Shown: piece after piece, positions 985-38,782 of the stretch
Layout: every line of letters begins with the position of its first letter
How positions within the stretch are numbered: the first letter of the stretch is position 1
Sequence record: PZ168289.1
Strand: one strand, 5' to 3'
Source: a phage
Length of the DNA stretch: 39,017 bases
Notes under the pieces: generated by a model
The model's database searches: none
Seen by the model: only the letters and a program-made list of their open reading frames with translations
What the model was told of the DNA's origin: nothing
Program-made: the position numbers and the translations under genes

Positions 985-1007
985 AGTCCCTATAGTGATA
1001 GTTTAGT
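985..1007 (-). promoter_or_regulatory. phage RNAP promoter (gene 6.5 upstream)
   Basis: Plus strand CCTATAGTGATAGTTTAG at 989-1006 = minus 5'-CTAAACTATCACTATAGG-3', same -7..+2 core as T7 CACTATAGG. Confidence 0.75.
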
Positions 1008-2206: not shown

Positions 2207-2487
2207 TGCTTGACCTCGAATCGCAGGTTGGACACACCTAACTGGCCATCACCAAAGGCGTCTACCAGTTCTTCCTTGATGTGCTTCTTGGCGACAATTT
2301 CAATGGCAGACTCAGGGCCTGACTCGATTGCTGCTTTGACCAGAGCCAACTGAAGCCCATCCAACTTCTCACCATCAGCGTAGGCTTTAGTCATCTCAGC
2401 CAGTTGGCGACACACGGTCTCTTCTGCCTTTGAGTTAACAACCATCTTCAGGTCAAAACTCACACGAATACGTTTAGTAATAGCCAT
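2203..2487 (-). CDS. gp5.5-like protein (H-NS binding in T7)
   Basis: Resembles T7 gp5.5 (GEKLDG..KKHIKEELVD.FGDGQL); start at ATG overlapping DNAP stop (TAATG); track start 2505 is likely too long. Confidence 0.7.
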   Translation of the reverse strand: MAITKRIRVSFDLKMVVNSKAEETVCRQLAEMTKAYADGEKLDGLQLALVKAAIESGPESAIEIVAKKHIKEELVDAFGDGQLGVSNLRFEVKQ

Positions 2488-4655
2488 TAGTGACACTCCT
2501 TCCACGTTGGTCCAATCTTACCTTCGGTATCAAGGACACATTTAAAGTTATAGAACTCACCCACCTTACGCATAGCAAGCTGAGCAATCTTGACTACTTC
2601 TTCAGCAATCTCCTGAGTACGACACGCAATCTGCAATTCATCATGCACCCAAGCCATGTACGCAAAGTCACCTTCCCAGCCGTGAACATACCCGGCCTCT
2701 TCGAGCATACGTTCAGTCTCGACAATCCAGTGCTTACAGACTACCGCACCATCTCCTTGAAGTAAGGCGTTCAGTGCTGAGTGCGGCGACCGGATGTGGA
2801 TACGGCGACCATCAAGTCCACGCAACCAACGGCGTTTCCACTTAACGATATTCTCACCGTCCACCCACTTAGAGTCTGAGATTAACGTATTGCTCACAGC
2901 TTCCCTGAGGTCTTTGATGGCTGGTGTACCCTCAATGAATTTCTTCATGAGAGCTGAACCTTCCTTCTTCCCACCGCCTACTATCAGTCCAATCTTAGCG
3001 GCCCCTGCACCGTACAGGAACGCATAGATGAACGTCTTAGCGTTGTTACGGAAAGCATCATGGTCGTGGCTCGACTTATCGCGTGGGACGTTAGGTGCTA
3101 ACCCAGCGTTTACTGCGTTGGCCCAGTGGATGTCACCTTCGACCACAGTCTTCGCATATGCACCACCATCAAACGGAGCCGCTCTGTTCCCAAGACAACG
3201 AAGCTCAAGACCTGAAGCATCCACACCCACTTGAATCCAAGGGTCTGGCTTACCATCCGTCTTGTTCCAAGCTGCACCGAAAGCACCACGGCAAATCTCA
3301 CCATACGGAGCACCGTTAGCAGGGACCTGAGCCATGTTTGGTGAACTGTGAGTCGCACGTCCGGTTACTGCCCCGCATGGGTTGATTGAACCGTGCATAC
3401 GTCCGTCTGGACCTACAAGTTTCAACCATGCGTTCTTACCTTCAGCCGCCTGACCTATGCGCTTCTGGACTACCAGATACTCACGGACCAGCTCTACGCA
3501 AGCCTGAGCCTCTGCGTCTGGCAACTTAACGTGTTCTAACGTCTCGTCATCGACTACAGGTTTCCCTGTGTCAGTGAAGTCCACAGGCTCCCAGCCCCGC
3601 TCCATCAAGACTTTCGCTAAGTGGTCTCCGCTTCCCGGATTAAACTCAACGTAGGTGATAGGTGTGAACGGTGCTCCCTCCATCGTGTCTCGTGAGTCAA
3701 ACTCGCAAGGCTCCAGACCTAAGCGTTGAGCTTTGTTCTTCGGCTTCTTGAATACTGACCCGACCTTAGGGTACACGACTCGCGGATACTTCGGAAGGTC
3801 CTTGCCTGTCCGTGGGTGCTTGAAGAACTCCTTGCCTCCCTTTGGTGCGTACCAGCTACCGAAAGTCGAACGCAGCTTGTCCAGCAGTTCTGCACGTTTG
3901 ACGGTGAGTTCACGATATAAGCCTTCGACCATCTCGGTGTTCATCGGATAGCCGTTACGCTCCATCTTCGCACAGGTCCACGCAGCATCATGTTCCAGAC
4001 GCAACGCATAAATCTGGTCGAAAGCGAACTGTTCAGACTGGAAGTAATACTTGTCAGTCAGGAACTTCTTGAGCAACGCCAGCGTGACCACAACGTCTTG
4101 AACGTTATAGTCCAGCATCTCCTGAGACGGGAACAACCATTCGTCCCCAGCCTTATATTCGATACCTTCAGCCTTGCACTTGGCAACGTAATCGTGTTTG
4201 TATTCACCTTTCATCTCACCAAGACGATAGCCCCAAGCCTCAAGAGACTGACGTCCCATCATCTTAGGTGGCAGACGGCCAGATTTCACCGCTCCCATGT
4301 CTGAGAACTTAATGTTGGGATACATCAAGCGCCCCAGCACCAAGGTATCAATCATCTTGTGTTTCGGGAAGTTAAAGCGTTTCCCAAAGTACAGACGTTT
4401 CAGCTTGTCAATAGCCGGGACGTCATAATTGATACCGTTGTGGAATACCAGCATACCATCAGGTGATGCGGCAATCTCTTCCACTTTATGCACATACTCT
4501 TTGAAGCCACCGACGATACCGACCATCGGAGCTACCCCGTACTTGAGGGTCTCATTCGACTCGGCGTTAATCAGGACCCCACAGTGAAACTGGGAGACTG
4601 TATCAAGGAGACCGTTGGTCTCGATGTCAGACCCGTATACGTTACTTAAGTCCAT
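2487..4655 (-). CDS. DNA polymerase (T7 gp5-like family A polymerase with 3'-5' exonuclease)
   Basis: Near end-to-end similarity to T7 gp5 (SDIETNGLL, FHNG..YDVPA, DYNVQDVVVT, WVHDE, LDTEGK.GP.W); GGAGGA RBS before ATG 4655. Confidence 0.97.
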   Translation of the reverse strand: MDLSNVYGSDIETNGLLDTVSQFHCGVLINAESNETLKYGVAPMVGIVGGFKEYVHKVEEIAASPDGMLVFHNGINYDVPAIDKLKRLYFGKRFNFPKHKMIDTLVLGRLMYPNIKFSDMGAVKSGRLPPKMMGRQSLEAWGYRLGEMKGEYKHDYVAKCKAEGIEYKAGDEWLFPSQEMLDYNVQDVVVTLALLKKFLTDKYYFQSEQFAFDQIYALRLEHDAAWTCAKMERNGYPMNTEMVEGLYRELTVKRAELLDKLRSTFGSWYAPKGGKEFFKHPRTGKDLPKYPRVVYPKVGSVFKKPKNKAQRLGLEPCEFDSRDTMEGAPFTPITYVEFNPGSGDHLAKVLMERGWEPVDFTDTGKPVVDDETLEHVKLPDAEAQACVELVREYLVVQKRIGQAAEGKNAWLKLVGPDGRMHGSINPCGAVTGRATHSSPNMAQVPANGAPYGEICRGAFGAAWNKTDGKPDPWIQVGVDASGLELRCLGNRAAPFDGGAYAKTVVEGDIHWANAVNAGLAPNVPRDKSSHDHDAFRNNAKTFIYAFLYGAGAAKIGLIVGGGKKEGSALMKKFIEGTPAIKDLREAVSNTLISDSKWVDGENIVKWKRRWLRGLDGRRIHIRSPHSALNALLQGDGAVVCKHWIVETERMLEEAGYVHGWEGDFAYMAWVHDELQIACRTQEIAEEVVKIAQLAMRKVGEFYNFKCVLDTEGKIGPTWKECH

Positions 4656-4920: not shown

Positions 4921-6624
<1,704 letters not shown>

Positions 6625-6672: not shown

Positions 6673-6694
6673 ATCCCTAAGGTGATAGTTTAGG
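6672..6694 (-). promoter_or_regulatory. variant promoter-like motif upstream of primase-helicase
   Basis: CCTAAGGTGATAGTTTAG; minus -4/-3 are CT instead of TA; may be weak or non-functional. Confidence 0.35.
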
Positions 6695-6929: not shown

Positions 6930-7388
6930 TTAACCACGGTCGGAAGTGACCAGTTCATTGGTAGACAGCCAGCGTTGCAAGTCGAAACTTGGACACGCCT
7001 TAGGTGCTACGTCATGGTGTGCTTTGATTTCTGCCTGAGGATACATGGACTTCAGGTCAGCCAGCTTGTTGCGCAGGGAGTTCATCTGGGCTGTAGTGAA
7101 GTTAGCTTCAAACTGACCCTTAGCGTTGATTCCACCTACAAGGCAGACGCCTACGGACTTGGAGTTCCAGTCCTTAACGTGTGACCCTACGACATTGACT
7201 GGGCGACCCTCTTCCACAGTGCCATCACGTTTGATGATAAAGTGGTAGCCTACGTCCAGCCAGCCTTGCTGCTTGTGCCACATACGGATGGTCTCTACCC
7301 CGATGTCCATCTCTGGCTTGGTAGCCGAACAGTGAACGAAGATAGCGTCAGTCCGGGACCGTGGGTTGAACTGTACCTTACTTACCAT
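6930..7388 (-). CDS. lysozyme / N-acetylmuramoyl-L-alanine amidase (T7 gp3.5-like)
   Basis: Near-identical blocks to T7 lysozyme (DAIFVHCSATKP, WLDVGYHFIIKRDGTVE, GVCLVGGI, APKACPSFDL, ELVTSDRG). Confidence 0.96.
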   Translation of the reverse strand: MVSKVQFNPRSRTDAIFVHCSATKPEMDIGVETIRMWHKQQGWLDVGYHFIIKRDGTVEEGRPVNVVGSHVKDWNSKSVGVCLVGGINAKGQFEANFTTAQMNSLRNKLADLKSMYPQAEIKAHHDVAPKACPSFDLQRWLSTNELVTSDRG

Positions 7389-9469: not shown

Positions 9470-9492
9470 CTGTCCTACAGTGATAGTTTAGG
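9470..9492 (-). promoter_or_regulatory. phage RNAP promoter (SSB upstream)
   Basis: CCTACAGTGATAGTTTAG, one mismatch at -3; contains the gp2 stop codon. Confidence 0.6.
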
Positions 9493-9646
9493 CCTCAGGA
9501 CGAATCCGTCCGACCACAAACCCAGCGTCCTCATACTCTTGGGACTTCAAGGTAGCCTCTTCAAGAGACTTTGCGTACACCGGAACCTCGAAGGACTTAA
9601 CGCGACCCTCAAGCTCCACGATGTACTTCTTCTCTACGTCAGTCAT
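9488..9646 (-). CDS. gp2-like inhibitor of host RNA polymerase
   Basis: 52-aa ORF (below track threshold), hand-translated; FEVPVYA...AGF.VGRIRP resembles T7 gp2; TAA stop lies inside promoter 9470-9492. Confidence 0.55.
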
Positions 9647-9724
9647 AGACCACGCTCCTTCCATAAGTTGTAGAGCTGAAGGTAATCGACGTTACCTGTC
9701 TCCTCAAATTTTCTCTCAGCCCAC

Positions 9725-10060
9725 TCACTCGGCAGCATAGCACTTACCTTTATGTAGGTCGAACAGCTCCTGATAGAAGGCTGCTTTGTTCAGGTCCTTC
9801 TCCATAGTAGCCAGCTCTGACTTCTTACCAGCTCGGAGTCGATACTTCAGGACGTTACCCATGCAGAAACCACGGAACTCGCTGACAGTCATTGACCGCG
9901 CGATAATCTCAATGGATTCCACGCCGTCAAAGACCTGATAGTGTGACGGCTTGCGAACCCCGTCATCTTTACTACACGCGGCGATGATGCTGGTAACAGC
10001 ACCGCAGTCGCACGAACCGAAGCTAAGGACCGAGCGGCACCACTCCTTGTGCTTAGCCAT
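9725..10060 (-). CDS. gp1.7-like protein, C-terminal domain only (T7 gp1.7 is a nucleotide kinase)
   Basis: KPSHYQVFDGVESIEIIARSMTVSEFRGFCMGNVLKYRLRAGKKSELA matches the C-terminal half of T7 gp1.7; 111 aa vs 196 in T7; AAGGAGGTGG RBS. Confidence 0.8.
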   Translation of the reverse strand: MAKHKEWCRSVLSFGSCDCGAVTSIIAACSKDDGVRKPSHYQVFDGVESIEIIARSMTVSEFRGFCMGNVLKYRLRAGKKSELATMEKDLNKAAFYQELFDLHKGKCYAAE

Positions 10061-10313
10061 TTACCACCTCCTTCACGTACTCAATGAATAGACGAACGCG
10101 AGGCCACTTAGTGTAGACCACGGGTACATTGGTCTCACGCTTCTGGCGAGCCTCTTCAGCTTTGCCCGGAGTAATCAGAGCGAAGACTGTAGGTGACATC
10201 TTAACGGCCTTCCCGAAGTAGCCCAGCTTCTCGTTGCGCTTAATGCAAGCGAACGGGTTGTTTGACAGGTGGAAGGTACTGGAATAACGGTTGAACATTA
10301 AGTTCTTAAACAT
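10053..10313 (-). CDS. hypothetical protein (gene 1.5/1.6 position)
   Basis: 86-aa ORF with AAGGAGG RBS before ATG 10313, just downstream of promoter 10342-10364. Confidence 0.65.
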   Translation of the reverse strand: MFKNLMFNRYSSTFHLSNNPFACIKRNEKLGYFGKAVKMSPTVFALITPGKAEEARQKRETNVPVVYTKWPRVRLFIEYVKEVVNG

Positions 10314-10341: not shown

Positions 10342-10364
10342 TTGTCCTATAGTGATAGCTTAGG
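10342..10364 (-). promoter_or_regulatory. phage RNAP promoter (gene 1.5/1.6 region)
   Basis: CCTATAGTGATAGCTTAG, one mismatch at -12; directly after the TE-like terminator. Confidence 0.65.
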
Positions 10365-10399: not shown

Positions 10400-10437
10400 C
10401 AAAGCAAAGAAACCCAGCAGTCCGAAGACCACTGGGT
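10400..10437 (-). terminator. intrinsic terminator downstream of ligase (T7 TE-like)
   Basis: Minus RNA CCCAGUGGUC-UUCG-GACUGCUGGG followed by UUUCUUUGCUUU; position matches T7 TE after gene 1.3. Confidence 0.65.
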
Positions 10438-10555
10438 TGACGTTATAATGAATCTCTTAAGGCTACTGCCTCGGCTATGGTCTTGGCATATAGGACCACG
10501 CGCTCTCCGTTGACCACCTTCTTGATACAGTAAAGCTCTCGACCTTTCATCTACT

Positions 10556-12103: not shown

Positions 12104-12122
12104 CCTATAGTGATAGTTTAGG
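12100..12122 (-). promoter_or_regulatory. phage RNAP promoter (gene 1.1 upstream)
   Basis: Perfect CCTATAGTGATAGTTTAG; transcript begins with the conserved hairpin element at 12059-12103. Confidence 0.75.
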
Positions 12123-12413: not shown

Positions 12414-15095
12414 TTAAGCGAATGCAAAGTCTGAAGACAAGATGTCTTCGATATTCAGTTTACCTTTCTTCGGAAGCTCAGGCAACTTATCGCGCTGGCT
12501 CTCATGAAGCTGGTATTCAAACTGCTCGTAGAAGTCCAGCAGCACATCGTTGTCTCGGTAGGTCTCGACCATCGTCTCACGGACACCACGGAACAGATAC
12601 TCAGCGTCAGCCGGGATGGTCCCGAAGCTATCGTGAATCACTGCGAATGACATCACGCCATACTTGCGGTGAGTGTGGACTACAGTCTTGCGTAGGTGGC
12701 TACCATCTTGTGAGTGGACGAAGTTCGGGCTAATTCCTGACTCCTGCTTGTGCTTATCCAGCTCCTTCTTCGTGCCTTTGTTGACGGTAGGCTGAAGGTT
12801 GAATGACCCTAAGAACATCAGGTTCAGACGAGTTGTATCCTTCTTGCGGTATTCCTGCCATACCGGGAACCCATCAGGTGTGACCCAGTGTACCGGAAGA
12901 CAAGGCTTCAGGATTTCTCCAGTCTTCTTGTCCTTCACCTCAGCAGCCAGCAGCTTGGCAGCACCTTGAAGCCACTTCATCGCGTCAACCGCAGCAACTA
13001 CTGTCACACTCACAGCTTCCCAAATCATCTTAGCCATGAAGCGAGACGCTTGGCTTGGTTCAGTGAACATAGCGCCAGACCCTGAGTCAATCGCTGGCAT
13101 CACGATGTCCTCGTATACTTGGTCTGCGAAGCCGTACTCTTTCGACCCGTAGGCCAGAGTCATGACCGAACGCTTAGTGACCTTGCGTGACATACCGTAG
13201 GTCAGCCACTGACGGGCCAGCTCTCGTGTCCCCAGCTTGAGACGCTCGGTAATCTCACCAGTTTTCTTGTCCTCGTGAGTTGCCATCTCGTTGTCCGTAC
13301 CGTTAACCAGCAGGACTTTGAGTTCCTCCTCAATGCGGTCAGACACAATGCGATAGATGTCTTGGACCTTACCGGATGGCGTTAGGTTTACTGCATGCCC
13401 ACCGATGTGGTCACGAAGCATCGCGCTGAAGTGCTGAATCCCAGAGCAGGACCCATCGAAAGCTATCGGCAGCGAGCAGGAGTAAGACAAACCGTGGTGC
13501 ATTACGCCAGCATACTCGAAGCAGAACGCTAGGAAGCAGAACGGAGAGTCTAACTTACCCCACCACTCAATGCTGTCCATCGGTGCTTTAGCGGTAGCCA
13601 TGATGTTGTCGTGGTTATCTTCCACCCACTTGATGCGCTCCTCGAAGGTTACTTTATCAATACCCGCACAGTTTGCACCGTGGACCTTCAGCCATTTGAA
13701 ACCATCAGCACCAATAGGCTTACCGACTGCCAGAGTCAGCAGACCCTTTTGCATGTCGTTACCCTGAGGGTTGAACATCGGCACAGCGTAGACGCGACCG
13801 CGCCAGTCCATGTTGTACGGAAACCAGATGGCCTTGAACTGAGAGAACTTGTTCGCTTGGTTAACGATAAAGCTCAGTGACAATCTACGTGACTGCCGGG
13901 CCTTCTCTCGGCGGTAGATACCAGCAGCAGCCTTCTTCCATGCCTTGAGTTCCTCCTCGGTCTCACCCGCATAGTCCTCAGGCTTCAGTGGCTCCATCTG
14001 AGGGATGTCATCAATAGGTGTGTTGTTCAACTTCTCGACCATGTTCACCACGTCCAGCACCTTCTTGTTCACTTTCCAAGGTGTGTTCTGAATGATGTTC
14101 ACAGCGTCGTAGACTTCAGGCATGTATACGTCTTCATAACGTGCCACCGCTGACTTAGACCCTAAGCGAATCAGGGGCAGCGGTCTGCGACCTTTGGCCC
14201 AGTACCCACCGCCTACGACACCAGTCCACGGCTTAGGTGGAACGACGCAAGGCTGGTAGACTGGAGCGATACCCGCAAGGCTGAATCCTCGTTGTGCCAT
14301 CTTCTTGACCCAGAAGTCTGACAGGTGGACCATCTCTACGTCAGCCGCTGCATTGCCAGCACCGTACCGCTTAAGCTCGACCAGTTGTGTTGACTGGATG
14401 ACAATCTCAAGCATCTTGATGCCAACGTGGACAGCCTCTGTAGGACTCCAAGTCCCCCACGCATCTTCCAGTTGGCCTTGCTCCAGCATGGATGCCTCGA
14501 CCGCTTGCATGTAGGCTTTCTTGTAGGACGCCCCGGCCCGCTTATTCAGGTTATCAGCTATCGCCTTCTTGAAGTGCTCTTTCTCCTTGTCACGGATGCG
14601 ACCGAAGCGGATTTCGTCCTCAAGTGTGCGACCTATCGCGGAGGCCATCGGTGTAATCGGTATCCCTTCAGGCTTGACCAGCTTGGAGAGTATGACCTTC
14701 AGTATGATGACCGCAGCAGACTCGCAAGAGATACGCAGAGAGCGGTCCTTGACGGCCTTCTCTTCAGTGCTCAACATGGTGAACGCTACGCTAGGACGAG
14801 AGGTTGACAGCTTCCCGTCTGGGCCTCCATGCCACTCCTTGATGGCTTGCGCAATCTTAGGGACCAGAGTCTGCATCAAAGGCTTGGCTACCTGATTGTC
14901 TGCGAGTTCTCCGCGCTCAGTCTGGCGCTCAAGGTTCTTGATGAAACGTCGCTCGCCTTCAGTGTATGCCTCGTGCTCAAGCTGAAGCTGCTTGACTGCA
15001 AGGTCCTGCCCGTAGTGGTCAGCCAGCAGGTTAAACGGCTCAATGGCGTTTGACACATCAGAGAAGTCGTGTTTTTCAATAGAGATGACGCTCAT
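12414..15095 (-). CDS. single-subunit DNA-directed RNA polymerase (T7 gp1-like)
   Basis: Collinear with T7 RNAP (HDFSD, PFN.LADHYG, motifs around DGSCSGIQHFSA and HDSFGT, C-terminal FAFA); start set to ATG 15095 (MSVISIEKHDF) with AAGGA RBS; track start 15146 is GTG. Confidence 0.97.
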   Translation of the reverse strand: MSVISIEKHDFSDVSNAIEPFNLLADHYGQDLAVKQLQLEHEAYTEGERRFIKNLERQTERGELADNQVAKPLMQTLVPKIAQAIKEWHGGPDGKLSTSRPSVAFTMLSTEEKAVKDRSLRISCESAAVIILKVILSKLVKPEGIPITPMASAIGRTLEDEIRFGRIRDKEKEHFKKAIADNLNKRAGASYKKAYMQAVEASMLEQGQLEDAWGTWSPTEAVHVGIKMLEIVIQSTQLVELKRYGAGNAAADVEMVHLSDFWVKKMAQRGFSLAGIAPVYQPCVVPPKPWTGVVGGGYWAKGRRPLPLIRLGSKSAVARYEDVYMPEVYDAVNIIQNTPWKVNKKVLDVVNMVEKLNNTPIDDIPQMEPLKPEDYAGETEEELKAWKKAAAGIYRREKARQSRRLSLSFIVNQANKFSQFKAIWFPYNMDWRGRVYAVPMFNPQGNDMQKGLLTLAVGKPIGADGFKWLKVHGANCAGIDKVTFEERIKWVEDNHDNIMATAKAPMDSIEWWGKLDSPFCFLAFCFEYAGVMHHGLSYSCSLPIAFDGSCSGIQHFSAMLRDHIGGHAVNLTPSGKVQDIYRIVSDRIEEELKVLLVNGTDNEMATHEDKKTGEITERLKLGTRELARQWLTYGMSRKVTKRSVMTLAYGSKEYGFADQVYEDIVMPAIDSGSGAMFTEPSQASRFMAKMIWEAVSVTVVAAVDAMKWLQGAAKLLAAEVKDKKTGEILKPCLPVHWVTPDGFPVWQEYRKKDTTRLNLMFLGSFNLQPTVNKGTKKELDKHKQESGISPNFVHSQDGSHLRKTVVHTHRKYGVMSFAVIHDSFGTIPADAEYLFRGVRETMVETYRDNDVLLDFYEQFEYQLHESQRDKLPELPKKGKLNIEDILSSDFAFA

Positions 15096-15163
15096 ACTTA
15101 AAGTCCTTGTTATTAGTCTTTCACTTAAGTCTCTTTGGTCTTTCACTTGGAGTCTTAGACCTT

Positions 15164-15186
15164 GAGTCCTATAGTGATAGTTAAGT
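15164..15186 (-). promoter_or_regulatory. phage RNAP promoter directly upstream of the RNAP gene
   Basis: CCTATAGTGATAGTTAAG at 15168-15185, about 70 nt upstream of RNAP ATG 15095. Confidence 0.65.
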
Positions 15187-15191
15187 CATAA

Positions 15192-15452
15192 TTACTTGCA
15201 TATCAGAGGGTTAGCGTGAAGATGACTGAAGTCACCGTGAGTCGTGTGCTTGATGGTTGACCGTTGGTCTATCGCCTTCCAGCCTGAGACCAGAAGTTTA
15301 CCATCGTCGGTGATTGGTCGTCCACCATACGCCAGACACATCAGCTCGGACTTATGGCCCTCGGCCCGGAGTCTTGCTTGCAGAACCCGGTCTCGCTCCT
15401 GCTGTTGACGTGCGGTGTGACTTGATGGTTTGTGTGTGTATACGGTTTTCAT
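15192..15452 (-). CDS. hypothetical early protein
   Basis: 86-aa ORF directly upstream of RNAP; start overlaps the stop of the preceding ORF. Confidence 0.5.
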   Translation of the reverse strand: MKTVYTHKPSSHTARQQQERDRVLQARLRAEGHKSELMCLAYGGRPITDDGKLLVSGWKAIDQRSTIKHTTHGDFSHLHANPLICK

Positions 15453-15649
15453 TACAGTTTGCTCCCAAGAGTTGCTATATCCCAGACGTTCGCTAAATTG
15501 CGCATGAATCGTCCGTTAGGTTGACGTACAGTCCAGCGGCCCAGACGTACATAGTTGAATTTGTAGACTTTACATGCCTTGTTGATGTCTCTCACCAGCA
15601 CGTAGGCGATAAGTCCATAGCCATAGGCTATCAATAGTGCAAGACTCAT
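15452..15649 (-). CDS. hypothetical early protein with hydrophobic N-terminal segment
   Basis: 65-aa ORF; N-terminal stretch LALLIAYGYGLIAYVLV looks like a transmembrane helix; ATGA overlap with upstream micro-ORF. Confidence 0.5.
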   Translation of the reverse strand: MSLALLIAYGYGLIAYVLVRDINKACKVYKFNYVRLGRWTVRQPNGRFMRNLANVWDIATLGSKL

Positions 15650-15735
15650 AGTGATTTCCGTTTAATACAGTCGTATAACCCATAGCCTATCATCCAGATA
15701 ACTGGCGCTAGGCAGACCCAATATCCCACACTCAT
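15646..15735 (-). CDS. putative 29-aa hydrophobic micro-protein
   Basis: Hand-translated MSVGYWVCLAPVIWMIGYGLYDCIKRKSL; AGGAG 7 nt upstream; stop overlaps next start (ATGA). Confidence 0.3.
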   Translation of the reverse strand: MSVGYWVCLAPVIWMIGYGLYDCIKRKSL

Positions 15736-15805
15736 AGTTAACTCCTATTAATGCAAGTGGTAATCTTTGAGGCCACCTATCAGTCGATGACCTCTCGTCT
15801 ATCAC

Positions 15806-15931
15806 TCAGTACCCGCCTGTCAGTGTTATGGTTAGGCTATGGTGATTAGCCACGTAGCAAGCCCCGCGCTTCATCATCTCGTAGCACCCATCGTAGAACG
15901 CCTGTTCACTGCTATAAGTTATCTGGTACAT
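15806..15931 (-). CDS. hypothetical early micro-protein (track ORF 15806..15994 shortened)
   Basis: Track start 15994 is GTG; internal ATG at 15931 follows a GGGAG motif and sits just after the stop of the upstream 49-aa ORF. Confidence 0.35.
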   Translation of the reverse strand: MYQITYSSEQAFYDGCYEMMKRGACYVANHHSLTITLTGGY

Positions 15932-15932
15932 G

Positions 15933-16082
15933 TTAGTCAATCTCCCAGATAGCCGTACCATTTGGTAGACGTTTACCAAACCCCTGCTGGTCACGGAAGC
16001 GTGCCCTTGCGTCTCTCTCGTTGTATCCGTAGCAAGTCATTGTGTAACACCATCCCGGAATGTGTATAGCGTATCGTTTCAT
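15933..16082 (-). CDS. hypothetical early micro-protein (49 aa)
   Basis: Hand-translated MKRYAIHIPGWCYTMTCYGYNERDARARFRDQQ...; GAGGA 9 nt upstream; ATGA overlap with upstream ORF. Confidence 0.4.
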   Translation of the reverse strand: MKRYAIHIPGWCYTMTCYGYNERDARARFRDQQGFGKRLPNGTAIWEID

Positions 16083-16240
16083 TGTGGTTTATCCTCAGCG
16101 TGTAGACTATCGTGAATACGTTTGCGGCCCTCATAGACCGCTTTCAGGTGACGCATGGTCGCATCGTGGTTTAACTGCCCGGTCTTGACCATAATCCGGG
16201 CGTTGGTGACGTGGTGCTGGCAGAGACCATAAGTTACCAT
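16079..16240 (-). CDS. hypothetical early micro-protein (53 aa)
   Basis: Hand-translated MVTYGLCQHHVTNARIMVKTGQLNHDATMRHLKAVYEGRKRIHDSLHAEDKPQ; ATG overlaps Ocr stop (TGATG); GAGGA upstream. Confidence 0.4.
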   Translation of the reverse strand: MVTYGLCQHHVTNARIMVKTGQLNHDATMRHLKAVYEGRKRIHDSLHAEDKPQ

Positions 16241-16850: not shown

Positions 16851-17025
16851 ACTGGCAATTGAACGCATGGTCCAAGCACTTATTGAACGCGTCCTGCGCT
16901 TGCTCACGGCTATCCCACTCAGTCTTAGACAATCCGTAGATTATCACATGCTTAGTGCGATACTTATAGTCGTTAGCCGTATACCAGATTACGCCCAGTT
17001 CTTCGTTCATCGCTATGATTTTCAT
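16849..17025 (-). CDS. putative first early ORF (58 aa)
   Basis: Hand-translated MKIIAMNEELGVIWYTANDYKYRTKHVIIYGLSKTEWDSREQAQDAFNKCLDHAFNCQ; weak RBS; flanked by two related hairpin elements. Confidence 0.3.
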   Translation of the reverse strand: MKIIAMNEELGVIWYTANDYKYRTKHVIIYGLSKTEWDSREQAQDAFNKCLDHAFNCQ

Positions 17026-17039
17026 AATGTTACCCTATT

Positions 17040-17274: not shown

Positions 17275-17311
17275 TGAATCATACTACTTTAAGTCGGTAC
17301 ATCTTGTCAAC
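17275..17311 (-). promoter_or_regulatory. candidate host sigma70 early promoter 2
   Basis: Minus-strand TTGACA (plus 17305-17310), 18-nt spacer, TAGTAT (plus 17281-17286). Confidence 0.4.
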
Positions 17312-17459: not shown

Positions 17460-18093
17460 TTAAATAATATTGATTGAGCTATCGTCGGCCCCATAGTGTA
17501 AGAGGATATAGTCTTTGACTAACATGTCTTTGACCTTAAGTCTATAGCTGTGTGTCGATTAACTGTAGGCCTTTGACTGTAGGCGTTGGTGTCTTATGGT
17601 TGTGACTTATGGTTGTGACTTATGGTTGTGACTTATGGTTGTGACTTATGGTTGTGACTTATGGTTATACAGATAGAGACTCAGAGGCAGACCAATAGTC
17701 CCTACCTATCGTCTCCACCACCACCGATAGTCATGACCTATCGTTGACTTGAGGTATTTACAGCCGGTCCAACCTTATGATAGACTGGGGTAGGGCCTTT
17801 GGTCTGGACTTAAAGAGGGCCTATGGGGAGACTTGAGGTTCTTGAACTGTGAGATGTGGTCTCAAACTTTTGGTCCAAAACTCATCGTCCCTACTGTAGG
17901 ACACAGCCACTGTAGGTCAAGGACCGTAGGTCAGGCGACACTAGGATAGACCAATAAGTAGGATGACCCTAAGTGAGCTTCTATTAAGGTGTTACCTAAA
18001 GTCCTTGACTACAGTAGCTAAGGTCAGTAGAGTGAGTCTTTATCCACGTACTGACCTTAGGTCTTCCGCTCATGAATCGTTACCATGATTGCG
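17460..18093. repeat. ORF-free genome-terminus region with dispersed short repeats (likely holds the collapsed terminal repeat / concatemer junction)
   Basis: No ORF of any size with an RBS; recurrent short motifs (TAGGTCA/TGACCTA variants, TGTAGG); lies between the last late gene and the early promoters, where the T7 ends and terminal repeat map. Confidence 0.5.
17593..17670. repeat. tandem array of a 13-bp unit CTTATGGTTGTGA (5 perfect copies plus degenerate flanking copies)
   Basis: Perfect copies at 17593-17605, 17606-17618, 17619-17631, 17632-17644, 17645-17657; partial copy 17658-17670; in the ORF-free genome-end region. Confidence 0.9.
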
Positions 18094-18432: not shown

Positions 18433-18455
18433 CTTCCCTATAGTGATAGTTAAGT
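18433..18455 (-). promoter_or_regulatory. phage RNAP promoter (phi-OR-like, after terminase, before gp19.5)
   Basis: CCTATAGTGATAGTTAAG at 18437-18454. Confidence 0.7.
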
Positions 18456-21409: not shown

Positions 21410-23410
21410 TTACCAGTAGTACCAGTCTCCTTTTCTACTTCTGACTAAAATAGAGCAATCGGCAACTGGTACTGTAGATACCCCACCAATCTTTATCTCA
21501 TACAGTTTACTAGGCAATCTTCGCTTAGTCAGAGATGCTTTAAAATCTGTACCAGTTACAGTGATATATTCCGTTCCATCCTCACTAGTTATCTGTAGTG
21601 CCAGGCCACTAGGACTTGCTGGCAACTTAACATAAAGCTGCTGTTCTGCTGTACTACCAGCGAAATGACCAATAACGGTAGTTGTCCACTCACTCAAAGT
21701 CAGCCCTGAACGCACAAAATCTACATTAAGGGGTTCCTTAATAAGTGCAGCAGGTGCATTGTAATTATGCCCGTTAAGTACATAGTAGTTGCTGCTACCA
21801 ACCTCTACTGTGTCTGCTGTGCAATAAGAGTGGAAGGTTTTTGCGTTATCAAAGCGATATAGGCTTCTGATTAGCACACGCTCTTGATTGCTTCTGGTTA
21901 AAATGCCACAACCTGCGGAAAGGTGGAGTGTGGAGATGGTAAGCGTATGACTTTCACTGTTGGCCTTGGATGACAGCAATGACACCTTGGGTTCACCCTC
22001 TTGAGTAAAGTCTTTACTATTACCCTCACAGTACATGATCCCAATGTCCCACGCAGCAGGGTCCATTGTTACCACCCCAGCACCAGCCGTATTCTCAGAG
22101 CAAATCACACCAACACTAGTAGATAAACCACGACCTAAGATAATACCAGCACCTATCGTATATTTACTCGCATCATCTGTGATTGGGTCATAACCTAGTC
22201 CCGTAGACTTATCTGTACCCCATGCACTAATGTGAGGGAAGTGTGTAGCATTTACATAGGTATCCCCTTGCTCACCTTCCGTTGAATAACCTAATGCCAT
22301 GCCCCTTGCACAGTTGTTTGCATGGAGAGTACCCATTTGAAAATACCAGCAAGCAAACATTACAATGCCATATCTATTAGCATTATATGCATAGATGCTA
22401 CCCATCTCGGATTCTGCACACATTAGTCGTGCGTAAAAACCATACGATGCAATATCTGCACAGTCTATGTTCAGACTACCAATCAAACGTAGCCCTCGTA
22501 CCTGGTTCTCAGTATTAGCTACATCAACGGTTGGGGTTCCAATAGGAAATTTACTAACACGAACAACAGATTTTAATGCGGGCCATGTAGGACCAATTGC
22601 TTTAATTGTTGCCCCATTTAGATTCCCACGTAGGTAAGAGGGAATAACAACCTCATCTGTTACGTGGTAGGTAGACTTGCCATCAAGGTTTAATGTGCCT
22701 GTAGCTATGGCCAATTTTATAGCAGGTAGACAGTCAAAGCTGGGGTCGTTCGGGATTGCCCCAAAGTTCTCAGGTGAGTGTTCATCAAGCCCATTCAGCT
22801 TACCTACGTTAGTCCAATTGGAATCAGGGGTTGAACCTGTAGGCACTGTTTTTGGGAGAGCACCATCCCAGCGGTAATAATAACCATCCTCTTCCCATAG
22901 CAGGACCTCGTTCCATAGTGTAACGTTGAAGCCTTTCTCGAAGGAGCTACGGGTAATATAGCCAATTAGACCAGCTTCCCTGATATTCGAAACTATTCGT
23001 CGTGCTTCGTCCTCGCTATCCTTAGCGTTGCCAGCAGAGATACCAGCAGCATCGGCATATTCCTTCGCTAAGTCAACAGTTTGGTCTCGCCCTTCTTCTG
23101 CAATATGGATAGCCTGAAGCTCTGAATTGGTCAGGTCACTAGCTGTCAACACTGAGCCATTCCTGAAGTCTACCACTAAGTCAGTTCCAGTCTGACGGTG
23201 AATACGAACGATATCGAAACCTGATTGGTCAACCAACATCTCAATCATCGTTGGATTAAGGAATCGGTAATCTCGACCAACTTCCAGTACACGGTTCAGG
23301 GCAGGGTTAGAGCTATTCACCAGCGTAACAACAACAAACGTTCTGGCTAGGTAGTCGAACTCAATCCTGTACCGAGTGTTTCCTGAAGGGAATTGTGTAA
23401 TCGTGGACAT
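21410..23410 (-). CDS. tail fiber / tailspike: T7 gp17-like N-terminal adaptor with divergent C-terminal receptor-binding domain
   Basis: N-terminal ~150 aa align with T7 gp17 ([37 protein letters not shown]); C-terminus differs and carries a GAIPNDP..D...I..AI motif typical of beta-helix depolymerase tailspikes. Confidence 0.88.
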
Positions 23411-23455: not shown

Positions 23456-23478
23456 GTTTCCTATAGTGATAGTTTAGT
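23456..23478 (-). promoter_or_regulatory. phage RNAP promoter (tail fiber upstream)
   Basis: Perfect core at 23460-23477; contains the gp16 TAA stop. Confidence 0.75.
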
Positions 23479-31162: not shown

Positions 31163-31185
31163 AGTCCCTATAGTGATAGTTAAGG
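31163..31185 (-). promoter_or_regulatory. phage RNAP promoter (gp13 upstream) inside an inverted repeat
   Basis: CCTATAGTGATAGTTAAG at 31167-31184, flanked by GGGCCTATAG (31155-31164) and CTATAGGCCC (31191-31200). Confidence 0.7.
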
Positions 31186-35805: not shown

Positions 35806-35828
35806 TCTCCCTATAGTGATAGTTTAGT
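35806..35828 (-). promoter_or_regulatory. phage RNAP promoter (major capsid upstream)
   Basis: Perfect core at 35810-35827; ~105-nt leader to capsid ATG 35703. Confidence 0.8.
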
Positions 35829-36792: not shown

Positions 36793-36815
36793 AGTTCCTA
36801 TAGTGATAGTTTAGG
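36793..36815 (-). promoter_or_regulatory. phage RNAP promoter (scaffold upstream)
   Basis: Perfect core at 36797-36814; contains the portal TAA stop; leader has hairpin CCGGG-AGTCTCA-CCCGG (36751-36767). Confidence 0.75.
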
Positions 36816-38379
36816 CTTGAGCCATGTCCTCACCAGCTCCCTGACCTACAGCAGCGCCCATGTTAGCACCAGCAGCAGACGCACCGTTGACCACAGCTCC
36901 TTGAGTGGATTGTTCAGCCATACGTTGCAGCTTCTCGTCCTGAGTCAGCAGTAGACCAGCGGTGTCAATGCCTAAGGCATTCAGCAGTCGCAGCTTCAGG
37001 GTCGGCAAGTTAATGTCTGGGTCCTGTTGCAGAGGCTGTAGCCCGGTCATCATGTTGACTGCCTGAGTCAACTTCTCTAAGTCTTGACCACGACCTAACG
37101 CTTCCAGACCAGTGGAGACCGTAGGCTCTACCGCTTCTTTCGGAAGGTCAGGAATCATGCCAGCAGACTGAAGTTGGTTCATCAGCACACGGACGATAGG
37201 TAACTGAAGCTCTTGTGACTGTACTGAGTACACGCCACCTAAGGTCGCCTCCAGTTCGCCAGCAACATAACGAATCTCTTCAGCAGTGACTCGCTCGGCA
37301 TTACGCTGAACAGCACTATTAAGAAGGAAGGCCCAGCCTAAACGTTGCTCGATAGCATCAGCCACCGACTTGGCAATCGTAAAGTCCTGACCTTTCGTCA
37401 GTTGAAGGAAGTTGATGTCCTCAACGCGACCAGCCACGAACTCACCTGTAGCCGCCTTGTTCAGACGACGAGGTTGCGTGATACCGTTCGGGTTAACGAG
37501 GCCCACCACCTTGGAGGCTACCTTAGCCATTTTGGTGATAGCTTCTGTAATCGTCTCCAGCGAGTTCAGGTCTCCCAGATACTCCTCGCAGTAAGAACGA
37601 CCATAGTCTTCACCATCCAGTCGAACCATTCGCACCGGGATGTACGGACAGGCAGTCAGTGGGTAAGAACCCTCGGTCCCTGCTACCTCAATTCCTTCCA
37701 CTTCCTCGTATCGCAGATACTCGTCGTCCTGACGGTAGATGTGCGTATATACTTCCAGCTCGGTGTCAGGCTCATAGTCGTCTGCGTTGAGTTGTGACTT
37801 CACGTCTTCCGGTAGAGCACTAAACGCTACCTTGTCGAGAGTCACAATCTGCAAGATATTACCGAAAGCATCACGTTGAACAACGTAGGACACTAAGCGG
37901 TACATTCGCATAGGACTGTAAGTACCCTGTTCAGGCTCTGGAATGTATAGCAGACAGTTACCGGAGACGATAAGCTGCTTCAGAGCTTCGAACAATGGCA
38001 CGCGGAAACTGTTAGTCTCCATGTAGGCCATCAACACACGCTCGACCATAGCAAGCCCTTCGTCAACACGAGCAGCAGCCTCTGAGTCCTGACTCAAGGT
38101 CTTGGCCTCATATTCGGAGACTGTCAGTCGCATCCACGGTGACTGAGGGAATAACGCCAACATCAGCTTTGCAGCCAAGTTGTTCAAACAGCGAGCACCT
38201 ACAGCTTGCCACGGCGTCACGTATTCCGTAGAGGAGTTGTCTGACTCCTTGGGAAATAGCGAGGGGATGGTCACGGCAGCGCAGTTCTGTGCGCGGGTCT
38301 CGTAAGGCTGTCGTCCGTTCTTCAATCTATCATAAACTGACTTCGCGCCTTCAGCAGCAAATCCTTCACGTTCAGCCAT
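36811..38379 (-). CDS. portal (head-to-tail connector) protein (T7 gp8-like)
   Basis: Collinear with T7 gp8 (GAKSVY.RLKN.R.PYETRAQNCA, IPSLFPK.SDN.ST.Y.TPWQAVGAR.LNNLA.KLMLALFP, RLDGE.YGRSY.EEYLGDL, RVTAEEIRYVA.ELE.TLGGVYS). Confidence 0.97.
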   Translation of the reverse strand: MAEREGFAAEGAKSVYDRLKNGRQPYETRAQNCAAVTIPSLFPKESDNSSTEYVTPWQAVGARCLNNLAAKLMLALFPQSPWMRLTVSEYEAKTLSQDSEAAARVDEGLAMVERVLMAYMETNSFRVPLFEALKQLIVSGNCLLYIPEPEQGTYSPMRMYRLVSYVVQRDAFGNILQIVTLDKVAFSALPEDVKSQLNADDYEPDTELEVYTHIYRQDDEYLRYEEVEGIEVAGTEGSYPLTACPYIPVRMVRLDGEDYGRSYCEEYLGDLNSLETITEAITKMAKVASKVVGLVNPNGITQPRRLNKAATGEFVAGRVEDINFLQLTKGQDFTIAKSVADAIEQRLGWAFLLNSAVQRNAERVTAEEIRYVAGELEATLGGVYSVQSQELQLPIVRVLMNQLQSAGMIPDLPKEAVEPTVSTGLEALGRGQDLEKLTQAVNMMTGLQPLQQDPDINLPTLKLRLLNALGIDTAGLLLTQDEKLQRMAEQSTQGAVVNGASAAGANMGAAVGQGAGEDMAQA

Positions 38380-38782
38380 CTACGTGCCTCCATGTTTTAC
38401 CTGTTAATACGTCAGACAGCGTTCTCCTAGCTACTCCCGGATATGCAGAGGTAAGCTCTGTCGCTGTTAGCCCTGACTTTCGTATGGACTTAACATCTTC
38501 GGCTGTTAGCTTTGAGTTGTAATGGCTGTCACTATGTGGAGCGTTCTTTCTACCTTTGGAAACACAGTCTACCATGTTATCGCTATAAGTACCAACGCTC
38601 AGGTGTTCGGGATTGACGCATAGTCTATTGTCGCAGGCATGCATCACCACTAGACCTTCTGGTATGGGACCTTTGTGTTTTAGGTAGGACACTACATGCG
38701 CTCCACGCAGCTTGCCTGCATACCACTTCAGGCCATATCCAACATTATTTACGCAGCCCTTATGCAGTATGCAGTCTGTCAT
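38372..38782 (-). CDS. HNH homing endonuclease (copy 3 of 3)
   Basis: HNH motif (GCVNN.GYG, HACDNRLCVNPEHL) plus HTH-like tail; start overlaps gp7.3 stop, 3' end overlaps portal start by 8 nt. Confidence 0.85.
   Translation of the reverse strand: MTDCILHKGCVNNVGYGLKWYAGKLRGAHVVSYLKHKGPIPEGLVVMHACDNRLCVNPEHLSVGTYSDNMVDCVSKGRKNAPHSDSHYNSKLTAEDVKSIRKSGLTATELTSAYPGVARRTLSDVLTGKTWRHVDG

What the first reader, a model, noticed from the sequence alone, without database searches (positions are those of the whole stretch)
15164..15186. Phage RNAP promoter directly upstream of the RNAP gene, and a distinct promoter specificity
Eleven sites share the consensus 5'-CTAAACTATCACTATAGG-3' on the minus strand. 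The -7 to +2 core (CACTATAGG) matches T7, but the specificity region differs (C at -11, T at -10, A at -12), implying a different RNAP/promoter pairing from T7, T3, SP6 or K11. One copy lies ~70 nt upstream of the RNAP gene itself, which T7 lacks, and would create a positive feedback loop. Several promoters also contain the stop codon of the upstream gene.
Basis: partly seen in the sequence, partly recalled or inferred. Interest (0 to 1): 0.5.

Follow-up and report, generated by a model that had tools for sequence, protein, structure and literature searches.

The report
Known K1F-type phage promoter set
The eleven repeats are the standard promoters of a K1F-like (Kayfunavirus) relative of phage T7, including the already published one in front of its own RNA polymerase gene, so the finding is real but ordinary.

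Summary
Eleven minus-strand matches to CTAAACTATCACTATAGG exist (0.04 expected by chance). One has its +1 G at 15169, 74 nt upstream of the RNA polymerase (RNAP) start codon.

The window is a complete, circularly permuted Kayfunavirus genome. It is 94-96% identical in DNA to phage K1F and relatives. Its RNAP is 99% identical to K1F gp1, with an identical specificity loop.

K1F carries the same 11 promoters at the same 11 places. The consensus is published:
- MCTAAACTATCACTATAGGRAAA (Scholl & Merril 2005, quoted in PMC3079711).
- CTWAACTATCACTATAGG (PMC13298934).

The pairing of this loop (754S/756N/761V) with promoter bases ACTAT at -12..-8 has been used for orthogonal T7 polymerases. A congener's RNAP (Ro45lw, 94% identical) transcribes from this promoter in vitro.

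The promoter in front of gene 1 and its "autoregulation" reading were published for K1F, gh-1 and phi15 in 2011. For LUZ100 the start site was mapped and a positive-feedback model proposed.

New support here: the site is present in 22 of 22 relatives. In a sister lineage with a T3-like loop it changed to ACCCT together with all that lineage's other promoters.

Stop codons inside promoters also occur in T7.

Verdict: real, correctly read, already known. Low interest.

The parts
15164..15186 (-). phi1: phage-RNAP promoter (-17..+6, ACTTAACTATCACTATAGGACTC). +1 G at 15169, 74 nt upstream of the gene 1 ATG.
   Evidence: Orthologous to K1F 2475-2492. Present in 22/22 relatives. Covaries with RNAP specificity in a sister lineage.
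12414..15095 (-). Gene 1: single-subunit RNA polymerase, 893 aa.
   Evidence: Full-length alignment to T7 RNAP structures, E=0. 99% aa identity to K1F gp1. 94% identity to Ro45lw RNAP.
12783..12857 (-). Specificity loop QEYRKKDTTRLNLMFLGSFNLQPTV. In T7 numbering: N748 and Q758 kept; Q754S, R756N and I761V changed.
   Evidence: The same three substitutions are listed for the K1F loop graft with cognate promoter ACTAT.
15116..15181 (-). Imperfect 66-nt hairpin. Its 5' arm is promoter -10..+2 and its 3' arm lies in the gene 1 leader. Candidate RNase III (T7 R1-like) site in host-made read-through RNA.
   Evidence: MFE -18.3 kcal/mol; z about -4.4 to -5.0 against mononucleotide shuffles. A differently sequenced but equivalent hairpin exists in the Ro45lw group. 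Not recovered by RNAalifold. The function is inferred only.
15192..15452 (-). Last early gene before phi1 (K1F gp0.38 homologue, 86 aa). Its TAA stop lies 6 nt upstream of promoter position -17.
   Evidence: PHROG 7066, unknown function.
17281..17310 (-). Best sigma-70-like host promoter (TTGACA-18-TAGTAT). It would give the first, host-made transcripts through the early genes and gene 1.
   Evidence: 10 of 12 consensus positions. Sequence. A consensus match only.
10411..10438 (-). Early terminator (TE-like): 12-bp stem followed by a T-run, after the ligase gene.
   Evidence: Same position as T7 TE.
12104..12121 (-). Promoter after genes 1/1.1 (K1F 5553-5570 orthologue).
10346..10363 (-). phi1.6 promoter (CTAAGCTATCACTATAGG).
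   Evidence: Annotated as phi1.6 in Ro45lw.
9474..9491 (-). phi2.5 promoter (CACTGTAGG variant). Contains the TAA stop of gene 2.
6676..6693 (-). Promoter before gene 4 (CACCTTAGG variant). Contains the TAA stop of gene 3.7.
989..1006 (-). phi6.5 promoter.
36797..36814 (-). phi9 promoter. Contains the TAA stop of gene 8 (portal).
35810..35827 (-). phi10 promoter. The only site with the T7 class III start GGGAGA.
31167..31184 (-). phi13 promoter.
23460..23477 (-). phi17 promoter. Contains the TAA stop of gene 16.
18437..18454 (-). phiOR-type promoter downstream of the large terminase gene, about 580 nt before the terminal repeat.
9488..9664 (-). Gene 2: host RNA polymerase inhibitor, 58 aa.
   Evidence: PHROG 1307, E=5.5e-24.
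6930..7388 (-). Gene 3.5: amidase/lysozyme. In T7 the homologue is the natural inhibitor of the phage RNAP.
   Evidence: PHROG 822, E=7e-80. K1F annotation 'lysozyme/RNA polymerase inhibitor'. The inhibitor role is inferred from T7.

Best explanation
The window is the whole genome of a K1F-like phage (genus Kayfunavirus, T7 group), circularly permuted, with its genes on the minus strand. The 11 repeats are the complete promoter set of its own single-subunit RNA polymerase.

Recognition works as in T7:
- The invariant CACTATAGG (-7..+2) is the melting and initiation part.
- ACTAT at -12..-8 is read by the specificity loop, which differs from T7 at Q754S, R756N and I761V. This is the published K1F specificity class.

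The proposed course of events is as follows.
1. The host RNA polymerase starts at sigma-70 promoters near 17300.
2. It reads through the early genes and gene 1, down to the terminator at 10438-10411.
3. The newly made phage polymerase then also starts at phi1 (+1 at 15169) and makes more gene 1 mRNA. This is positive autoregulation.
4. That supply no longer depends on the host polymerase, which gene 2 protein shuts off.
5. The loop is probably restrained later by the gene 3.5 lysozyme, as in T7.

Shown here: the sites, their statistics, the orthology to K1F, the loop identity, the lack of a terminator between phi1 and gene 1, and the conservation and covariation of phi1.

Shown by others for relatives: in vitro initiation at +1 G by the Ro45lw RNAP, and recognition of ACTAT by the grafted K1F loop.

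Inferred: in vivo use of phi1, the feedback itself, and its restraint by lysozyme.
For: - Eleven sites against 0.04 expected by chance, all on the coding strand.
- 94-96% DNA identity to K1F and other Kayfunavirus records.
- The RNAP is 99% identical to K1F gp1, the loop is identical, and K1F has the same 11 promoters at orthologous positions.
- The published K1F consensus is MCTAAACTATCACTATAGGRAAA. The Sparklingdew consensus is CTWAACTATCACTATAGG.
- The K1F loop substitutions 754S/756N/761V are paired with promoter ACTAT in engineered T7 RNAPs that discriminate against T7, T3 and N4-type promoters.
- Purified Ro45lw RNAP (94% identical, same contact residues) transcribes from ACTTAACTATCACTATAGGGA, with +1 = G mapped by sequencing.
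- phi1 is present 75-81 nt before gene 1 in K1F, Ro45lw and all 20 IMG/VR relatives.
- Two genomes of a sister lineage have the loop RLDLMFLGTFRLQPTV. All the promoters found in them, including the one 75-76 nt before gene 1, read AAACCCTCACTATAGG.
- No terminator-like site lies between 15169 and 15095.
- The literature states the autoregulation reading for K1F, gh-1 and phi15. For LUZ100 it gives a mapped start site and a feedback model.
- A ghunavirus has its own promoter 119 nt before its RNAP gene.
Against: - No transcription start map or expression data for any Kayfunavirus was found, so use of phi1 during infection is unproven.
- phi1 starts GGACTC rather than the strong GGGAGA, so it may be weak.
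- Most relatives are so close (93-99%) that conservation alone says little. The covariation rests on one sister lineage, seen in two genomes.
- T7-type phages with phiOL could in principle also re-transcribe gene 1, so the feedback may not be a special property of this group.
Confidence: 0.86

Rival explanations
1. The copy before gene 1 is a silent or very weak relic. It matches the consensus but contributes nothing to RNAP expression. Gene 1 is expressed only from host promoters, as in T7.
For: - The initially transcribed sequence is GGACTC, not GGGAGA.
- In the Ro45lw group this site alone carries -2 T>A.
- No in vivo data exist.
Against: - -13..+2 is a perfect consensus match, and six of the 11 sites start GGA.
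- The site is kept in 22/22 relatives.
- It switched to ACCCT in step with the polymerase loop in a sister lineage. A silent relic would not be expected to do this.
- Analogous sites have arisen in ghunaviruses and LUZ100, the latter with a mapped start.
Confidence: 0.05
2. The sequence is conserved mainly as the 5' arm of an RNA hairpin in host-made read-through transcripts, an RNase III processing site like T7 R1. Its match to the promoter is secondary.
For: - A 66-nt hairpin spans promoter -10 to leader +55, with z about -4.4 to -5.
- The Ro45lw group has a perfect 10-bp inverted repeat, ATCACTAAAG/CTTTAGTGAT, created by the -2 T>A change plus a 1-nt deletion in the leader.
- T7 has a hairpin at the same position.
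Against: - The -10/-9 change to CC in the sister lineage matches that phage's other promoters, not a pairing partner.
- RNAalifold finds no shared outer stem on the MAFFT alignment.
- The dinucleotide-shuffle z of the longer context is only -1.0.
- The two roles are compatible with each other. By my recollection, T7 promoters also often abut RNase III sites.
Confidence: 0.05
3. The main job of phi1 is not gene 1 expression. Instead its transcription would serve DNA transactions: priming a replication origin, or pulling the genome into the cell, as T7 RNAP promoters do downstream of gene 1.
For: - In T7 the primary origin is a pair of phage promoters followed by an AT-rich stretch next to gene 1 (from established T7 knowledge; the promoter positions are).
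- Kayfunaviruses have no phiOL, so phi1 is their leftmost phage promoter.
- The leader is A-rich and repetitive (AAGTGAAAGAC occurs twice).
Against: - The transcript necessarily runs into gene 1, behind a good ribosome-binding site (AAGGA).
- No origin features were tested or seen.
- Genome entry up to gene 1 must already have happened before any RNAP exists.
Confidence: 0.04

Closest known systems
Phage K1F promoter set and gp1 RNA polymerase (Scholl & Merril 2005, as quoted in PMC3079711 Table S3; records AM084414 and DQ111067)
   Same: - Same genus.
- RNAP 99% identical, with an identical specificity loop.
- The same 11 promoters at the same 11 gene junctions, including the one before gene 1.
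- Same consensus.
   Different: - Only single-base differences in the flanks, and a 74-nt rather than 75-nt leader.
- The rest of the genome differs: the tail-fibre C-terminus, the HNH endonuclease insertions and some early genes.
Ro45lw RNA polymerase and its promoter ACTTAACTATCACTATAGGGA (Takatsuki et al. 2025, PMC12272871)
   Same: - Same genus.
- RNAP 94% identical, with the same contact residues N748, S754, N756 and Q758.
- The promoter is identical over -17..+2 to the window's phi1 and phiOR sites.
- In vitro initiation at G was shown.
   Different: - Ro45lw's own gene 1 promoter carries A at -2 (CACTAAAGG).
- Its leader differs.
- Its loop has M750L.
Engineered T7(K1F) orthogonal polymerase with the PK1F promoter (Temme et al. 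2012, PMC3458549; Segall-Shapiro 2014, PMC4299498)
   Same: The same determinant pair is used: loop 754S/756N/761V with promoter ACTAT at -12..-8. This matches the window exactly.
   Different: It is a graft into a T7 backbone and T7 promoter frame, not the natural enzyme. Activity was lower than T7 and needed M750R in the split version.
phi1 promoters in front of the RNAP gene in gh-1, phi15 and K1F (Cornelissen et al. 2011, PMC3079711, supplement) and in LUZ100 (Putzeys et al. 2023, PMC10134795)
   Same: A phage-specific promoter lies immediately upstream of the phage RNAP gene. It is read as autoregulation or positive feedback. An independent example was seen here in ghunavirus Pf1-ERZ at -119.
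   Different: - gh-1 and phi15 use CCC(T/A)CAC-type promoters, and phi15 also keeps phiOL.
- In LUZ100 the promoter is thought to be under a MarR-type repressor in a temperate setting. No such module is present here.
T7, K11, PP81, 285P and T3-like phages (phiOL architecture)
   Same: - The same 23-bp promoter frame, CACTATAGG-type core and class II/III layout.
- TAA stop codons inside promoters.
- The TE terminator after the ligase gene.
   Different: - Their only phage promoter upstream of gene 1 is phiOL, 2.6-3.3 kb away and ahead of the host promoters. The gene 0.7 kinase sits directly before gene 1.
- The window has no phiOL and no 0.7-sized ORF.
- PP81 nevertheless shares the AACTATCAC specificity region.

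Membership tests
T7-group single-subunit RNAP promoters, K1F specificity class | Conserved element of about 23 bp, with CACTATAGG at -7..+2 and a +1 G. Many copies, all on the transcribed strand, at gene junctions. | tested here: met
   Eleven sites against 0.04 expected, all on the minus strand. Each lies 34-186 nt before an ORF, or at the stop codon of the preceding gene.
T7-group single-subunit RNAP promoters, K1F specificity class | -12..-8 = ACTAT, paired with an RNAP specificity loop carrying S754, N756 and V761 (T7 numbering). | tested here: met
   Promoter alignment. Loop LGSFNLQPTV from the alignment to T7 RNAP. The pairing is as listed in PMC11880802 Table 2.
T7-group single-subunit RNAP promoters, K1F specificity class | Positional orthology with the promoters of the type phage K1F. 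| tested here: met
   K1F has 11 sites with near-identical flanks at the same junctions.
T7-group single-subunit RNAP promoters, K1F specificity class | Specific initiation at +1 G by the cognate polymerase. | not testable with these tools
   Shown only for the congener Ro45lw in vitro and for the loop graft in E. coli.
Autogenously transcribed phage RNAP gene (phi1 type: gh-1, phi15, K1F, LUZ100) | A phage-specific promoter between the last early gene and the RNAP gene, on the same strand, with no terminator in between. | tested here: met
   +1 at 15169, ATG at 15095, upstream gene stop at 15192. No terminator-like site in the interval.
Autogenously transcribed phage RNAP gene (phi1 type: gh-1, phi15, K1F, LUZ100) | The site is maintained by selection as a promoter: it is conserved, and it changes with the polymerase's specificity. 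| tested here: met
   Present in 22/22 relatives. ACTAT changed to ACCCT together with the loop changes N748D and N756R, and with the other promoters, in two sister genomes.
Autogenously transcribed phage RNAP gene (phi1 type: gh-1, phi15, K1F, LUZ100) | A primary transcript 5' end at the site during infection, and RNAP-dependent increase of gene 1 mRNA. | not testable with these tools
   No Kayfunavirus transcriptome was found. A mapped start site exists only for LUZ100.
T7-type RNase III processing site (R1-like) before gene 1 | A stable, imperfect hairpin with an internal loop between the last early gene and gene 1, conserved in relatives. | tested here: inconclusive
   - The hairpin 15181..15116 has z about -4.4 to -5 against mononucleotide shuffles.
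- The longer context gives only -1.0 against dinucleotide shuffles.
- An equivalent hairpin with a different sequence exists in the Ro45lw group.
- RNAalifold recovers only a 4-bp inner stem.
- No Rfam family matches.

The most novel reading that the evidence does not exclude
phi1 is built into the 5' arm of an RNase III-type hairpin. Gene 1 would therefore be served by two different messengers. The host-made read-through RNA contains the full hairpin and would be processed. The phage-made RNA starts inside the hairpin, cannot form the outer stem, and would have a different leader structure, stability or translation rate. Together with the loss of phiOL and of the 0.7 kinase, this would make the Kayfunavirus RNAP circuit a self-sustaining switch wired differently from T7. 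The -2 T>A change plus the leader deletion in the Ro45lw group would then be tuning promoter strength against hairpin strength.
Probability: 0.15. Interest if true: 0.35.

Novelty: already known. Interest (0 to 1): 0.1.

Why it matters
It matters little as a discovery. The promoter consensus, its polymerase determinant and the promoter in front of gene 1 are all in the literature for K1F and its relatives. The specificity pair is already a synthetic-biology part.

The useful outcomes are these:
- A clean transcription map for annotating this genome: 11 promoters, a TE-like terminator, a candidate host promoter and the terminal repeat.
- Comparative evidence, from covariation in a sister lineage, that the gene 1 promoter is under selection as a promoter. 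This backs the published but untested autoregulation idea.
- A reminder that T7 itself is not representative of its subfamily on this point. No in vivo test of the feedback in any Kayfunavirus was found in the library searched.

Tried and rejected
- The primary K1F genome paper (Scholl & Merril 2005) and Chen & Schneider 2005 could not be read; they are not in the library. The K1F consensus is therefore cited second-hand, from PMC3079711 Table S3.
- The Temme 2012 supplements are not held. The loop/promoter pairing was taken from PMC11880802 Table 2 instead.
- A literature search for K1F or Kayfunavirus start-site mapping found nothing relevant.
- Rfam at gathering threshold gave no match in the window.
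- RNAalifold on nine leader sequences recovered only a 4-bp inner stem. A one-column register shift in the 3' arm defeats the alignment. I did not build a hand alignment, because only three effective lineages exist and the test would have no power.
- Folding the phage-made leader alone (+1 to ATG) is no better than shuffles, z = 0.05.
- A search for the T7 class II stop signal ATCTGTT gave chance numbers, with none at the repeat junction. Only a near match, ATCTGTA, occurs there.
- De novo motif finding failed for Pasteurella phage Pmp1, which has no clear repeated promoter. It is left out of the comparison.
- The idea that the promoter specificity is new was rejected.
- The idea that stop codons inside promoters are special was rejected.

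Full report
**1. Observation**

Searching the window for CTAAACTATCACTATAGG with up to three mismatches gives exactly 11 matches. All are on the minus strand, with 0-2 mismatches. Dinucleotide-preserving shuffles give 0.04 on average, and none of 100 reaches 11.

This is the classical -17..+6 frame, with the +1 G at 15169.

The large ORF just downstream (ATG at 15095, end at 12414, 893 aa) aligns end to end with T7 RNA polymerase (RNAP) structures. The start site is 74 nt upstream of the RNAP start codon.

**2. What the window is**

The RNAP region is 94-96% identical in DNA to K1F and to many other Kayfunavirus records. A whole-genome comparison with K1F is collinear. It shows that the window is a complete genome written on the minus strand and circularly permuted.
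- K1F position 1 maps to window 17854, and the K1F right end maps to 17676. One collapsed copy of the terminal repeat therefore lies at about 17676-17854.
- A six-copy 13-bp tandem repeat lies beside it.
- Sigma-70-like promoters lie just downstream.

The RNAP is 99% identical to K1F gp1 (9 differences in 893 aa). The specificity loop, QEYRKKDTTRLNLMFLGSFNLQPTV, is identical. Relative to T7 the loop keeps N748 and Q758 and changes Q754S, R756N and I761V.

**3. The promoter set is the K1F set**

K1F has 11 matches to the same pattern, at the same 11 gene junctions, with nearly identical flanks. One lies at 2475-2492, with its +1 75 nt before gene 1 (gene map). Using K1F gene names, the window sites fall as follows:

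| Window site | Position |
|---|---|
| 15185-15168 | before gene 1 |
| 12121-12104 | after gene 1.1 |
| 10363-10346 | before gene 1.6 |
| 9491-9474 | before gene 2.5 |
| 6693-6676 | before gene 4 |
| 1006-989 | before gene 6.5 |
| 36814-36797 | before gene 9 |
| 35827-35810 | before gene 10 |
| 31184-31167 | before gene 13 |
| 23477-23460 | before gene 17 |
| 18454-18437 | after gene 19 (phiOR type) |

No site lies between the terminal repeat and gene 1 other than phi1, so there is no phiOL. The same is true of K1F and Ro45lw.

**4. What is already published**

- Table S3 of Cornelissen et al. 2011 gives the K1F consensus as MCTAAACTATCACTATAGGRAAA, citing Scholl & Merril 2005.
- A 2026 paper on the Kayfunavirus Sparklingdew reports eight repeats with consensus CTWAACTATCACTATAGG. 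It calls them promoters.
- Temme et al. 2012 grafted the K1F loop into T7 RNAP and obtained a polymerase that discriminates against T7, T3 and N4-type promoters.
- A later table lists that graft as 754S/756N/761V with cognate promoter ACTAT. These are exactly the residues and bases found here.
- Takatsuki et al. 2025 purified the RNAP of Ro45lw, a Kayfunavirus whose RNAP is 94% identical to the window's, with the same contact residues. It transcribes from ACTTAACTATCACTATAGGGA, and deep sequencing of 5' ends put +1 at G.

The proposed in vitro experiment has already been done on a congener.

**5. The promoter in front of gene 1**

T7 indeed has no phage promoter directly before gene 1. Its annotated record shows phiOL at 405, then only E. 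coli promoters, then phi1.1A at 5849.

The same architecture holds in other genera. phiOL lies 2.6-3.3 kb upstream, and the gene 0.7 kinase sits directly before gene 1.
- By annotation: K11 and PP81.
- By de novo motif search: 285P, YenP_WX2 and the T3-like HMGUsm2 (loci fetched).

The window has no 0.7-sized ORF.

The feature is nonetheless not new. [quoted passage not shown] I found an independent example in the ghunavirus Pf1-ERZ, 119 nt before its RNAP gene. For LUZ100 a phage-specific promoter directly upstream of the RNAP gene was mapped by ONT-cappable-seq, and a positive-feedback model was proposed.

**6. Is phi1 functional?**

No terminator-like site lies between 15169 and 15095. A ribosome-binding site (AAGGA) precedes the ATG. 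Any initiation at phi1 therefore yields gene 1 mRNA.

The site is present 75-81 nt upstream of gene 1 in K1F, in Ro45lw and in all 20 IMG/VR relatives recovered with the RNAP N-terminus. These genomes are close, so conservation alone is weak evidence.

The stronger evidence is covariation. A sister lineage, seen in two genomes, has the loop RLDLMFLGTFRLQPTV, which is T3-like (N748D, R at 756). All of its promoters read AAACCCTCACTATAGG. They include the one 75-76 nt before gene 1, whose flanks are otherwise the same as here. A site that follows the polymerase's specificity is being kept as a promoter.

phi1 matches the consensus perfectly from -13 to +2. It starts GGACTC, as do the other non-class-III-like sites. 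Only phi10 has GGGAGA. It is therefore probably of moderate strength; this is inference.

**7. Mechanism**

1. The host RNAP starts near 17300 and transcribes the early genes: an Ocr homologue at 16767-16240, a gp0.38 homologue at 15452-15192, and gene 1. It reads on to a strong TE-like terminator at 10438-10411.
2. The phage RNAP then recognises the 11 promoters.
3. Initiation at phi1 adds gene 1 mRNA independently of the host enzyme. The gene 2 protein (9664-9488) is expected to inhibit that host enzyme.
4. In T7 the gene 3.5 lysozyme inhibits the RNAP, preferentially at weaker promoters (established T7 knowledge). A homologue lies at 7388-6930. It is the likely brake on the loop.

The last two steps are inferred.

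**8. Stop codons**

The TAA inside CTAAAC (-15..-13) ends genes 8, 16, 2 and 3.7. It also ends a doubtful TTG ORF that runs across the ligase end and the terminator.

This is a family habit. In T7 the TAA at -17..-15 of phi1.3, phi1.5, phi1.6, phi2.5, phi4.3 and phi9 is the stop codon of the preceding gene.

**9. A side observation: a hairpin around phi1**

In the host-made read-through RNA, promoter positions -10..+2 pair with the leader to give a 66-nt imperfect hairpin at 15181-15116.
- Its energy is -18.3 kcal/mol, with z about -4.4 to -5.0 against mononucleotide shuffles.
- In a longer context, against dinucleotide shuffles, z is only -1.0.
- The phage-made leader alone is unremarkable.

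The Ro45lw group has a different leader but a perfect 10-bp inverted repeat, ATCACTAAAG/CTTTAGTGAT. It is produced by the -2 T>A change in the promoter and a one-base deletion in the 3' arm.

T7 has a hairpin at the same position between genes 0.7 and 1. By my recollection this is RNase III site R1.

Several other promoters in the window are likewise followed by hairpins that reach back into TATA. RNAalifold did not recover the outer stem, and Rfam has nothing.

I regard an R1-like processing site overlapping phi1 as plausible but unproven. It is the only element with any residual novelty.

**10. Verdict**

Every element is already described for K1F and its relatives: the consensus, the specificity pairing, the promoter before gene 1 and the autoregulation reading. 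The finding is a correct re-discovery in a new K1F-like genome. Novelty: already known. Interest: low.

Noticed in passing
window 15116-15181 (-): An imperfect 66-nt hairpin that includes promoter -10..+2 and the gene 1 leader (z about -4.4 to -5). Ro45lw-group relatives have a perfect 10-bp inverted repeat there, made by promoter -2 T>A plus a 1-nt leader deletion. Its position matches the T7 hairpin between genes 0.7 and 1 (RNase III site R1 by recollection).
   Followed up: partly
L022/L033/L034/L038/L043 (IMGVR_UViG_2974571109_000001) and L036/L037/L040/L042 (IMGVR_UViG_3300045988_000030): A sister lineage with a K1F-like backbone has switched promoter specificity to AAACCCTCACTATAGG at all orthologous sites. 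Its RNAP loop is RLDLMFLGTFRLQPTV (N748D, 754T, 756R). This is a natural ACTAT-to-ACCCT specificity switch between close relatives.
   Followed up: partly
L027 (Pectobacterium phage PP81, Pektosvirus): PP81 promoters (ATTAACTATCACnATnGG) share the K1F-type AACTATCAC specificity region, although its RNAP is only 61% identical. It keeps the T7 architecture (phiOL plus gene 0.7, no promoter directly before gene 1).
   Followed up: no
window 17589-17666 and about 17676-17854: Six copies of a 13-bp tandem repeat (GTGACTTATGGTT on the + strand) lie directly beside the collapsed direct terminal repeat. A near match to the T7 concatemer-junction signal (ATCTGTA) sits at the repeat's end. The window is a permuted whole genome.
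   Followed up: partly
window 38372-38782 (-) and 2487-4655 (-): An HNH endonuclease ORF sits just upstream of the portal gene where K1F has no matching DNA. Conversely, the roughly 600-bp HNH-containing insert that splits the K1F DNA polymerase gene (K1F 14932-15531) is absent, so the polymerase ORF here is uninterrupted (722 aa).
   Followed up: partly
window 21410-23410 (-): The tail fibre gene keeps the conserved N-terminal adaptor (aa 1-198). Its C-terminal part has no K1F match, whereas K1F encodes the K1 endosialidase there. This phage is therefore probably not K1-capsule specific.
   Followed up: partly
window 9672-10065, 15651-16090, 16853-17038: These early and class II stretches have no BLAST match to K1F. 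K1F genes 1.7/1.75 are replaced by a shorter segment encoding a 111-aa nucleotide-kinase-like C-terminal fragment, and part of the early region is replaced.
   Followed up: no
L029 (Pseudomonas phage Pf1 ERZ-2017) 2873-2891: This ghunavirus has its own consensus promoter (TAAAAACCCTCACTGTGGC) 119 nt upstream of its RNAP gene, inside the annotated small ORF Pf1_00004. It is an independent case of a promoter next to gene 1.
   Followed up: partly
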